In this document: piece by piece, positions 5,043 through 5,760 of the stretch | Numbering within the stretch: the stretch's first letter is position 1 | How the letters are laid out: every line of letters starts with the position of its first letter | DNA from: Octopus sinensis | Lineage: Eukaryota | Assembly: GCF_006345805.1 (NCBI RefSeq) | Contig: NC_043003.1 | Coordinates: forward strand, 1,178,001 to 1,242,000 | DNA: 64,000 nt | Reading direction: 5' to 3' | Made by a program: the position numbers

Positions 5043-5723
5043 GCTTTTATTCTTTTAAACCTGTTTTCAGTCATTTACTGCGGGCCATGCTGGAGTACCC
5101 GCCTACAAGAAATTACAGTAAATGTTTTTTAAATTTTCTCCTGTTTACGGAATTAATCTTTATTGCGGTTGAAGCTTTGGCTGTTATTTCTAGTGGGTGA
5201 ATGGCCTATTATGCCGTTCCTTGATTGTTGATGTTGAACTTTAAAATGGTCTATGACTATTTAATTTTTCCCACTAGGCCGCTGGTGGCAAAAAAATTCT
5301 ACAATTCTACAAAATTTTTTGCCACCCTATATTGATTAATGATGAATTTTCTGGTTAATTCCGTAATGGAATCGACGGCTTATATTTATTTGCTGCCGAT
5401 AAATTTGGCGCGAGTGCGACGATTTGAAAATTTTAGGTCAGATATTACCTTGGCAGGGTCTGAATGCCTCGTGAAAATATCTGTTCCGACTTGGCTATTT
5501 CTTGCTGAAGAATCTGAGGGCCTATGGAAGATGGCTTGATTTAATTTAATCAGGTTAGTTTACCATTAAACAGCAGATGAAACGGTGCATCGTACAAGAA
5601 ATTACAGGGTAAATGTTTTTTAAATTTTCTCCTGTTTACGGAATTAATCTTTATTTGCGGTTGAAGCTTTGGCTGTTATTTCTAGTGGGTGAATGGCCTA
5701 TTATGGCCGTTCCTTGATTGTTG

Positions 5724-5760
<37 letters not shown>

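What the first reader, a model, noticed from the sequence alone, without database searches (positions are those of the whole stretch)
5104..5725. Retrozyme-like ~489-nt unit with an intact hammerhead; its 5' boundary matches the cleavage site
Seen: direct repeats at 5104-5232 and 5593-5725 (period 489 nt) and a complete type I HHR (8-bp stem I, CUGAAGA, 5-bp stem II with a ~55-nt structured insertion, GAAA, near-palindromic stem III, GUA). Cleavage is predicted after 5594, and the upstream repeat begins within 2 nt of the equivalent position, directly against a cut SINE. There is no credible ORF. Known: PLEs carry HHRs, and non-LTR retrozymes in animals make small circular RNAs. Inference: this is a cDNA copy of a self-cleaved RNA, mobilised in trans by a PLE RT, possibly an undescribed cephalopod retrozyme/circRNA family. 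A PLE partial-tandem pseudo-LTR is the alternative reading.
Basis: partly seen in the sequence, partly recalled or inferred. Interest (0 to 1): 0.85.

Follow-up and report, generated by a model that had tools for sequence, protein, structure and literature searches.

The report
Solo hammerhead-ribozyme retroelement copy in octopod-like DNA
A 622-base non-coding insertion carries one complete hammerhead self-cleaving ribozyme motif and starts almost exactly where that ribozyme would cut, which fits a known kind of small retroelement that borrows the machinery of Penelope-like elements.

Summary
5104-5232 and 5593-5725 are direct repeats (129 vs 133 nt, no substitutions, three homopolymer indels). 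A complete type I hammerhead lies at 5497-5602, with the cut predicted after 5594. It is the only hit to my descriptor in the window. None of 2719 dinucleotide shuffles gave a motif as good.

The upstream repeat starts 2 nt before the equivalent cut site. The insertion splits a tRNA-derived SINE, whose unique middle (roughly 140 nt) is missing. Its 3' end abuts the SINE's own (TA)n tract.

Best reading: one dead-on-arrival retrocopy, 1.27 units long, of a ~489-nt non-coding hammerhead element. That is a non-autonomous Penelope-like element or non-LTR retrozyme relative. The "pseudo-LTR" and "retrozyme" readings are largely the same thing.

A truncated Penelope-like element lies 29 kb away.

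Weak points:
- Rfam's hammerhead models do not match.
- Pair 10.1-11.1 is A-U rather than G-C.
- The locus has one ribozyme, not two.
- No second copy could be found.
- The fold stability is not special for this window.
- Self-cleavage, circular RNA and a repeat family are untested.

Verdict: new member of a known kind, of moderate interest.

The parts
5104..5725 (+). Whole insertion: 1.27 units of a non-coding hammerhead-bearing element
   Evidence: Bounded on the left by the SINE tail and on the right by the SINE's own microsatellite. GC content is 36.0%.
5104..5232 (+). Upstream direct repeat, 129 nt (pseudo-LTR-like). Holds only the last 2 nt before the cut site plus the 3' strand of stem I, so it has no ribozyme core.
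5593..5725 (+). Downstream direct repeat, 133 nt. The last 2 nt (AT) may instead belong to the microsatellite.
   Evidence: Tandem Repeats Finder starts the (AT)n array at 5724.
5106..5594 (+). One full unit from cut site to cut site, 489 nt. This is the RNA monomer that double cleavage of a tandem would release.
   Evidence: Read. In the linear minimum-free-energy fold the 5' end pairs with the 5' strand of stem I near the 3' end. GC content is 36.4%.
5497..5602 (+). Type I hammerhead ribozyme motif. Stem I 5497-5504/5595-5602; CUGAAGA 5505-5511; stem II 5512-5516/5574-5578; GAAA 5579-5582; stem III 5582-5585/5590-5593 with loop UGCA; predicted cut after A5594.
   Evidence: The hammerhead-constrained fold is -31.3 kcal/mol against a minimum free energy of -31.8 kcal/mol. 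There is no Rfam match.
5517..5573 (+). 57-nt insertion capping stem II, predicted to form a long imperfect hairpin
5582..5593 (+). 12-nt stretch that is self-complementary at the RNA level (two G.U pairs), able to form an intermolecular helix III in a double hammerhead
   Evidence: In the cofold of two copies of 5574-5602 this stretch forms the 12-bp duplex at -19.5 kcal/mol. Two full motifs cofold at -79.9 kcal/mol against -63.6 for two monomers.
5490..5493 (+). Outer extension of helix I: 5490-5493 pairs with 5605-5608 across a 3x2 internal loop. It depends on the extra GG found only in the downstream repeat.
5284..5326 (+). Internal hairpin with a 12-bp perfect stem (5284-5295/5315-5326) and a 19-nt loop
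5040..5103 (-). 3' tail of the interrupted tRNA-derived SINE (target DNA, left flank)
5726..5902 (.). (TA)n/(TG)n-rich microsatellite at the 3' junction, lying where the SINE has its own internal microsatellite
5903..6062 (-). Head of the same SINE (target DNA, right flank). The unique SINE body (roughly 140 nt) between this and the left flank is missing.
34120..35210 (-). 5'-truncated, frame-shifted Penelope-like element remnant (end of the reverse transcriptase plus the GIY-YIG endonuclease). Not part of the insertion; it shows that the proposed helper class exists in this genome.
   Evidence: Pfam GIY-YIG, E = 1e-6, 29.4 bits against a cut-off of 22.6. Relatives are ~700-aa RVT_1 + GIY-YIG proteins.

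Best explanation
5104-5725 is a single retrotransposed copy of a small (~489 nt), protein-free element that carries a type I hammerhead. It belongs to the non-autonomous Penelope-like / non-LTR retrozyme kind.

Proposed course of events (all steps inferred; only the anatomy is shown):
1. A master locus with at least two tandem units is transcribed.
2. The hammerheads, probably pairing two by two through their self-complementary helix III, cut after GUA. This leaves RNAs that begin at C5106-equivalent.
3. A PLE reverse transcriptase/endonuclease nicks the (TA)n tract inside a SINE. It starts cDNA synthesis inside the RNA, about 131 nt downstream of a hammerhead site that was uncut, re-ligated or bridged by a template jump.
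4. It copies back through one whole unit and runs off at the ribozyme-made 5' end.
5. The cDNA end is joined to upstream DNA with loss of the SINE's unique middle (roughly 140 nt), and no target-site duplication forms.

The product has only one ribozyme, so it cannot release a unit-length RNA again. It is a dead-on-arrival copy.
For: Shown:
- A genuine hammerhead, far above chance: 0 of 2719 shuffled windows reach it.
- The hammerhead fold is within 0.5 kcal/mol of the minimum free energy, and a dimer is favoured.
- There are 1.27 units with identical repeats.
- There is no ORF.
- The 5' end lies 0-2 nt from the cut site. That is about 5 of 489 positions by chance.
- The 3' end lies at a (TA)n tract inside the interrupted SINE.
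- GC is 36.4% and the unit is 489 nt. Both are within the published retrozyme range.
- A PLE remnant is in the same window.

From papers:
- PLE insertions are partial tandems with the hammerhead in the pseudo-LTR, and they prefer (TA)n. Non-autonomous relatives make pseudo-LTRs and head-to-tail copies (PMC8557442, passages).
- A purified PLE protein cuts AT-rich DNA and starts reverse transcription inside the RNA, 111-118 nt into an ORF whose hammerhead cut site is at +26. That is 85-92 nt past the cut site (PMC11167929, Main text).
- Retrozymes are proposed to be non-autonomous PLE derivatives (bioRxiv 10.64898/2026.07.22.740005).
- PLEs are annotated in octopus genomes (PMC13282606 and PMC8967140, passages).
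Against: - There is only one copy. None other was found in the window, and no eukaryotic genome collection was open to me.
- Rfam hammerhead models do not match, even at E <= 10.
- Pair 10.1-11.1 is A-U, whereas G-C is described as highly conserved.
- Stem II carries an unusual 57-nt insertion.
- In the one PLE tested in vitro, hammerhead cleavage was not needed for insertion, and no RNA-seq reads began at the cut site.
- Two of 6 SINE copies carry an 11-nt string similar to the element's first 11 nt at exactly the junction. The 5' junction could therefore be a microhomology join, not an RNA end.
- The window's PLE remnant shows no hammerhead and no similarity to the unit.
- The unit's fold z-score of about -3 is matched by 7 of 24 random stretches of the window. 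It says nothing about a selected compact RNA.
Confidence: 0.55

Rival explanations
1. Same kind of element and the same PLE-type insertion, but ribozyme cleavage played no part. The 5' end is an ordinary random 5' truncation or a microhomology-mediated join that happens to fall at the cut site.
For: [quoted passage not shown] Hammerhead mutants insert normally in vitro, and no transcripts start at the cut site in Anolis. Two of 6 SINE copies have TTGAAGAATTT or TTAAAAGATTT at the junction position, against the element's TACAAGAAATT.
Against: A random end falls within 2 nt of the cut site in only about 5 of 489 cases. Four of 6 SINE copies lack the similar string. The 11 nt at 5104-5114 are identical to 5593-5603.
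Confidence: 0.25
2. The element was copied by a LINE-type (apurinic-endonuclease) reverse transcriptase rather than a PLE one. The template was a tandem or circular RNA.
For: A LINE remnant with Exo_endo_phos, RVT_1 and zf-RVT domains lies at 10764-14136 on the minus strand. Cervera and de la Pena 2020 leave LINEs open as helpers (Discussion).
Against: There is no poly(A) and no tail shared with that LINE. The partial tandem, the hammerhead and the (TA)n junction are PLE hallmarks.
Confidence: 0.08
3. Remnant of a DNA-level tandem array (satellite-like retrozyme repeats) that was later trimmed by deletions. The boundaries then say nothing about RNA ends.
For: Metazoan retrozymes occur as tandem arrays from dimers to large multimers. 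Li et al. propose local amplification by unequal crossover.
Against: Both ends abut parts of one SINE in the right order and orientation, as expected for a single insertion. The repeats show no substitutions.
Confidence: 0.06
4. A chance hammerhead-like motif beside an unrelated local duplication.
For: There is no Rfam match, and pair 10.1-11.1 is non-canonical.
Against: None of 2719 shuffles reach the motif, and only 6 reach even the 5/4/3 thresholds. The repeat boundary independently coincides with the cut site.
Confidence: 0.03
5. A miniature LTR-type element (TRIM-like, or a plant-style LTR retrozyme) with 130-nt LTRs.
For: The layout is repeat - 360 nt - repeat, with a hammerhead touching the repeat.
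Against: There are no TG...CA termini and no target-site duplication (flanks CCGCC and ATATA). The hammerhead is type I, not type III, and lies mostly outside the repeat (definitions). I saw no primer-binding site after the first repeat, but that was inspection only and not a search against tRNAs.
Confidence: 0.02

Closest known systems
Metazoan non-LTR retrozymes (Cervera and de la Pena 2020, PMC7229834; Li et al. 2026 preprint)
   Same: Type I hammerhead. Non-coding unit of a few hundred nt (489 nt here; published 150 to >1000). Low GC (36%). No LTR, primer-binding site or polypurine tract. Head-to-tail arrangement. Weak palindromic helix III suited to dimers.
   Different: Only 1.27 units and one ribozyme at this locus. 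Stem II carries a 57-nt insertion. Pair 10.1-11.1 is A-U. No family, transcript or circle is shown. Cephalopods are not mentioned in the main text of that paper.
Pseudo-LTRs of Penelope-like elements and their non-autonomous derivatives (Cervera and de la Pena 2014, PMC4209133; Craig et al. 2021, PMC8557442; Frangieh et al. 2024, PMC11167929)
   Same: Partial tandem that creates a direct terminal repeat. Hammerhead at the repeat/body junction. 3' end some 100 nt past the ribozyme site. Junction in AT-rich or (TA)n DNA. No clear target-site duplication.
   Different: No reverse transcriptase or endonuclease ORF. This hammerhead has a full 4-bp helix III with a loop and an 8-bp helix I. The minimal PLE hammerheads described in 2014 lack helix III, have a 4-5 bp helix I, and have an extra unpaired base before stem II. 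The unit has no similarity to the PLE remnant in the window.
Dispersed or satellite hammerhead repeats of schistosomes, newts and cave crickets (named from my own recall; newt and Schistosoma cases are cited)
   Same: Short non-coding repeats with type I hammerheads that work best as dimers.
   Different: Those are high-copy families with demonstrated transcripts and cleavage. Here there is a single copy with nothing demonstrated.
HDV-like ribozymes at the 5' ends of R2, RTE and L1Tc retrotransposons (mentioned)
   Same: A self-cleaving ribozyme that would define the 5' end of the RNA to be reverse-transcribed.
   Different: A different ribozyme class. Those cut upstream of themselves and stay whole in the element. 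A type I hammerhead is split by its own cut, which is exactly the split seen in unit 5106-5594.

Membership tests
Hammerhead ribozyme, type I | Conserved core: C3 U4 G5 A6 N7 G8 A9 ... G12 A13 A14 A15.1 ... U16.1 H17 | tested here: met
   CUGAAGA at 5505-5511, GAAA at 5579-5582, U5593, A5594. N at position 7 is allowed by the published 'cuganga' descriptor.
Hammerhead ribozyme, type I | Three helices around the core, with helix I open (5' and 3' ends in helix I) | tested here: met
   Helices of 8, 5 and 4 bp. The fold constrained to this structure is -31.3 kcal/mol against a minimum free energy of -31.8.
Hammerhead ribozyme, type I | G10.1-C11.1 pair, described as highly conserved | tested here: not met
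   A5512-U5578. The conservation statement is in PMC4209133.
Hammerhead ribozyme, type I | Match to the Rfam Hammerhead covariance models | tested here: not met
   0 matches at gathering score in the window. No hammerhead family among the 13 matches at E <= 10 in 5050-5780. The 57-nt stem II insertion is a likely cause, but I could not test that.
Hammerhead ribozyme, type I | Short helix III with a palindromic loop that allows a double hammerhead (typical of metazoan type I) | tested here: met
   Loop UGCA. 5582-5593 is self-complementary over 12 nt, and the dimer cofolds at -79.9 against -63.6 kcal/mol. The feature is described.
Hammerhead ribozyme, type I | Loop 1 / loop 2 tertiary contacts | not tested
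   Helix I has a 3x2 internal loop at 5494-5496/5603-5604. No comparison with known contact motifs was made.
Hammerhead ribozyme, type I | Self-cleavage at the predicted bond | not testable with these tools
   Needs in vitro transcription of monomer and dimer.
Non-LTR retrozyme | Tandem repeats with a type I hammerhead in every unit (at least two ribozymes) | tested here: not met
   One ribozyme and 1.27 units. The upstream repeat keeps only 2 nt before the cut site.
Non-LTR retrozyme | Non-coding unit of roughly 150-1000 nt, with GC below 45% | tested here: met
   489 nt and 36.4% GC. The longest frame is 67 aa with no homologue.
Non-LTR retrozyme | Repeated family in the genome | tested here: inconclusive
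   No second copy in the 64 kb. 0 hits in the prokaryotic genome collection. No eukaryotic genome collection was available.
Non-LTR retrozyme | Expressed as linear and circular unit-length RNA | not testable with these tools
   Needs RNA data.
Penelope-like element (autonomous) | ORF with reverse transcriptase and GIY-YIG endonuclease | tested here: not met
   No ORF in 5104-5725. The only GIY-YIG frame is at 34120-34584, 29 kb away.
Penelope-like element (insertion signature, also of non-autonomous relatives) | Partial tandem forming a pseudo-LTR that holds the hammerhead | tested here: met
   The signature is described.
Penelope-like element (insertion signature, also of non-autonomous relatives) | Insertion into AT-rich or (TA)n DNA | tested here: met
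   The 3' junction is at the start of the (AT)n array, 5724-5902. The preference is described. Caveat: the tract is the SINE's own microsatellite.
Penelope-like element (insertion signature, also of non-autonomous relatives) | Sequence similarity of the unit to the pseudo-LTR of an autonomous PLE of the same genome | tested here: inconclusive
   No similarity to the single PLE remnant in the window.

The most novel reading that the evidence does not exclude
This copy is the footprint of an undescribed cephalopod family of ~489-nt hammerhead elements. In that family the RNAs are cut, and perhaps circularised, by a hammerhead with an unusually large stem II. The genomic copies would start at the ribozyme cut site and end at a fixed internal reverse-transcription start site. 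That would be direct genomic evidence that self-cleaved RNAs are the templates PLE machinery copies. It would answer what PLE-associated hammerheads are for, which reviews still call a mystery and which the one in vitro study did not see.
Probability: 0.2. Interest if true: 0.6.

Novelty: new member of a known kind. Interest (0 to 1): 0.4.

Why it matters
Hammerheads in Penelope-like elements and retrozymes are known to be widespread, but what the cut does in their life cycle is unsettled. An insertion that begins at the cut site and ends about 130 nt past the next one is what would be expected if cleaved RNA is the template and reverse transcription starts internally. If many copies in the source genome share both ends, that question becomes answerable by simple genome counting. 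As a single copy it is only an anecdote.

No paper in the held library describes a hammerhead or retrozyme in a cephalopod (searches; I saw listings and abstracts only). Supplementary tables of the surveys, which I could not open, may list some.

Tried and rejected
Rfam search. The whole window at gathering score gave no family. The locus at E <= 10 gave only microsatellite-driven miRNA and other weak matches. I treat this as a failed membership test for the Rfam model, not as proof against a hammerhead.

Fold stability as evidence of a selected compact or circular RNA: rejected. The unit gives z = -3.8 as a linear RNA and z = -3.0 as a circle, with 62% of bases paired. But 7 of 24 random 489-nt stretches of the same window reach z <= -3.0 (4 low-complexity draws skipped, 14 shuffles each).

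Search for other copies:
- blastn of the insertion against the window found none.
- Two exact-pattern scans of the prokaryotic genome collection found 0 and 0. These were tried only because host-contaminated 'bacterial' contigs exist.
- A protein search with the 67-aa frame found nothing.
Copy number, tandem arrays and the distribution of ends therefore stayed unchecked.

Search for a second hammerhead, including minimal forms without helix III. It found only the known site and one weak AT-rich hit at 50841 (4-bp helix I), which I take for chance. None lies near the PLE remnant.

Search for a coding partner in the window. I scanned 50 of the 63 stop-to-stop frames of >=110 aa with Pfam. The 13 not scanned lie in the six-frame-open stretches at 6483-7720, 30657-31324 and 41079-41618; I took them for low-complexity repeats from the overlapping open frames (6483-7720 is microsatellite). 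A DUF4087 match (18.7 bits, cut-off 25) was ignored.

Other checks. ARAGORN found no tRNA in 4500-6600. Tandem Repeats Finder does not report the 489-nt period, because 1.27 copies is too few. The LTR-type reading was rejected on termini and the lack of a target-site duplication.

Supplementary files of the cited papers were not opened. Those of PMC4209133, PMC7229834 and PMC8557442 may list mollusc or cephalopod hammerheads or PLE families that bear on novelty.
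Full report
What is there. The sequence holds two direct repeats, 5104-5232 and 5593-5725. The repeat finder gives three 100%-identical blocks of 47, 51 and 20 nt, spaced 491-493 nt apart. blastn aligns the two stretches at 97.0% over 133 columns, E = 4.8e-57. MAFFT shows 129 against 133 nt with no substitution. The three indels (+GG, +T, +G) all lengthen a homopolymer run in the downstream copy. Similarity begins abruptly at 5104/5593, with only 4 of the 19 columns upstream identical. 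It ends at 5232/5725, where the first copy continues into unique sequence and the second runs into (TA)n.

The ribozyme motif. Between the repeats and overlapping the start of the second lies a complete type I hammerhead. Helix I is 5497-5504 paired with 5595-5602 (8 bp). CUGAAGA is at 5505-5511. Helix II is 5512-5516 paired with 5574-5578 (5 bp), capped by a 57-nt insertion. GAAA is at 5579-5582. Helix III is 5582-5585 paired with 5590-5593, with loop UGCA. The triplet GUA ends at 5594.

Is it more than chance? A generic type I descriptor that I wrote finds this site and no other on either strand of the 64 kb. In 2719 dinucleotide-preserving shuffles of the window it found 88 hits at the loosest thresholds, 6 at stems >=5/4/3, and none at the observed 8/5/4. 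By my own arithmetic, scaling the 5/4/3 rate by 0.375 per extra pair gives about 1.6e-5 expected per window.

The fold constrained to the hammerhead costs only 0.5 kcal/mol more than the minimum free energy (-31.3 against -31.8). The 121-nt region folds better than all but 1 of 200 shuffles. The 12 nt of helix III plus loop are self-complementary at the RNA level. Two copies of the motif cofold into a double hammerhead at -79.9 kcal/mol, against -63.6 for two monomers. This is the weak, palindromic helix III that Cervera and de la Pena describe for metazoan type I hammerheads (PMC4209133, parts 1-2 of the text).

Against the motif. Rfam's hammerhead models give no match at gathering score or at E <= 10. 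Pair 10.1-11.1 is A-U, whereas G-C is called highly conserved. A 57-nt insertion in helix II is unusual. Activity is therefore open.

The surroundings. The left flank (5040-5103) is the tail, and the right flank (5903-6062) the head, of one tRNA-derived SINE lying on the minus strand. Six fuller copies elsewhere in the window align to both flanks. Those copies hold 153-192 nt between the two flank ends, part unique body and part an internal CA/TA microsatellite. At this locus the unique body is gone; by my reading of the six sequences it is roughly 140 nt. In its place are the 622-nt insertion and a 177-nt (TA)n/(TG)n tract. There is no target-site duplication. So this is one insertion into a SINE, with its 3' junction at the SINE's own (TA)n and a target deletion at the 5' junction.

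One caveat on the 5' junction. Two of the 6 SINE copies carry TTGAAGAATTT or TTAAAAGATTT exactly where the insertion begins with TACAAGAAATT. Microhomology may therefore have guided the 5' join.

Coding capacity and helpers. The longest stop-to-stop frame within the unit is 67 aa, and it has no homologue in the 5.8-billion-protein collection. I scanned 50 of the 63 frames of >=110 aa in the window with Pfam. They reveal two things:
- A degenerate LINE with apurinic-type endonuclease, RVT_1 and zf-RVT domains at 10764-14136 on the minus strand.
- A GIY-YIG endonuclease frame at 34120-34584 on the minus strand (E = 1e-6, above Pfam's cut-off).

The frame just upstream of the GIY-YIG frame (34566-35210) has 105 relatives. 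The best are ~700-aa proteins carrying RVT_1 plus GIY-YIG, and the named ones come from bivalves. That is a 5'-truncated Penelope-like element. It has no recognisable hammerhead and no similarity to the unit. It does show that the helper class exists in this genome.

The LINE's best named relative is from the octopod Argonauta hians, at 63% identity. The SINE also resembles, from my recall only, the abundant octopus SINE. Published octopus repeat annotations list Penelope-like elements (PMC13282606 and PMC8967140, passages).

How it most likely arose. Three published points fit the anatomy:
- PLE insertions are typically partial tandems whose repeated part (the pseudo-LTR) holds the hammerhead, and they favour (TA)n. 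Non-autonomous relatives also form pseudo-LTRs and head-to-tail copies (PMC8557442, passages).
- A purified PLE protein nicks AT-rich DNA and starts reverse transcription inside the RNA, at 111-118 nt into the ORF. The hammerhead cut site there is at +26, so the start lies 85-92 nt past the cut site (PMC11167929, Main text).
- Non-LTR retrozymes are tandem, non-coding, low-GC units with type I hammerheads that are cut and circularised (PMC7229834, passages and Discussion). They are now argued to be non-autonomous PLE derivatives (bioRxiv 10.64898/2026.07.22.740005; abstract, Introduction, first part of Results, Discussion).

Here the 3' end lies 131 nt past a hammerhead cut site and abuts (TA)n. 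The copy runs back through one whole unit, and the 5' end lies 0-2 nt from the previous cut site.

The simplest account is target-primed reverse transcription by a PLE enzyme on an RNA longer than one unit, whose 5' end had been made by hammerhead cleavage. Three templates give the same product, and the sequence cannot separate them: a linear multimer cut at one site and not the next, a monomer with an end-to-end template jump, or a circle that opened. A circle alone does not explain a 5' end at the cut site.

The two extra bases (TA, 5104-5105) may be templated, non-templated or target-derived. For a random end, the chance of falling within 2 nt of the cut site is about 5 in 489.

What weakens it. 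There is one copy only. In the Anolis system the hammerhead was not needed for insertion, and no reads began at its cut site. The microhomology caveat above also applies. The three indels without any substitution are odd for post-insertion decay. They point to assembly error, reverse-transcriptase slippage or template heterogeneity, and I cannot tell which. The extra GG is what allows a 4-bp outer extension of helix I. Finally, the unit's favourable fold z-scores are not special in this repeat-rich window.

Classification. It works like a non-LTR retrozyme or non-autonomous PLE. As a locus it fails the retrozyme definition of a hammerhead in every tandem unit and the PLE definition of a coding ORF. 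It is best filed as a solo, dead-on-arrival copy of that kind.

Novelty is modest. Hammerheads of this lineage are known to be widespread in metazoans, including molluscs. My searches found no paper describing one in a cephalopod (listings and abstracts only, and supplements were closed).

The value lies in the testable prediction that both ends of the copies are fixed, one by the ribozyme and one by internal initiation of reverse transcription.

Noticed in passing
window 34120-35210 (-): 5'-truncated, frame-shifted Penelope-like element. It has a GIY-YIG frame preceded by a Cys-rich linker, plus the end of the reverse transcriptase. Relatives are ~700-aa RVT_1 + GIY-YIG proteins, and the named ones come from bivalves. 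Its untranslated 3' side runs about 700 nt to another (TA)n tract near 33330-33420. No hammerhead was found in it.
   Followed up: partly
window 10764-14136 (-): Degenerate LINE split over at least four frames (Exo_endo_phos, RVT_1, zf-RVT). The best named relative is a hypothetical protein of Argonauta hians at 63% identity.
   Followed up: partly
window 8040-8422, 17152-17480, 24768-25166, 31339-31756, 38038-38420, 53781-54190 and others: Many copies of a ~400-nt tRNA-derived SINE with an internal CA/TA microsatellite of very variable length. Two of the six aligned copies carry an extra ~10-nt block after ...GCC.
   Followed up: partly
window 4911-4954 and 6250-6293: Inverted 44-nt arms, 86% complementary. 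By eye they belong to a second, tRNA-like repeat type (about 4840-4960 and 6160-6300) that brackets the whole locus in opposite orientations. ARAGORN calls no tRNA there.
   Followed up: no
window 6614-6773 and 6836-7500: Long (CA)n and (ATCT)n microsatellites that open all reading frames and produce spurious long ORFs. The miRNA-model matches at 5724-5780 are the same kind of artefact.
   Followed up: no
protein hits P0004, P0138, P0143, P0161, P0171, P0179, P0191: Proteins labelled as bacterial in public records (Herbaspirillum MAG, Solemya velum gill symbiont, Candidatus Thiodiazotropha MAGs). They are close relatives of mollusc LINE or PLE proteins on contigs of up to about 5 kb, so they are probably host DNA in symbiont or metagenome bins.
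   Followed up: no
window 50841-50879 (+): Weak minimal-hammerhead-like match (4-bp helix I, 5-bp helix II, one bulged base) in AT-rich sequence. I take it for chance.
   Followed up: no
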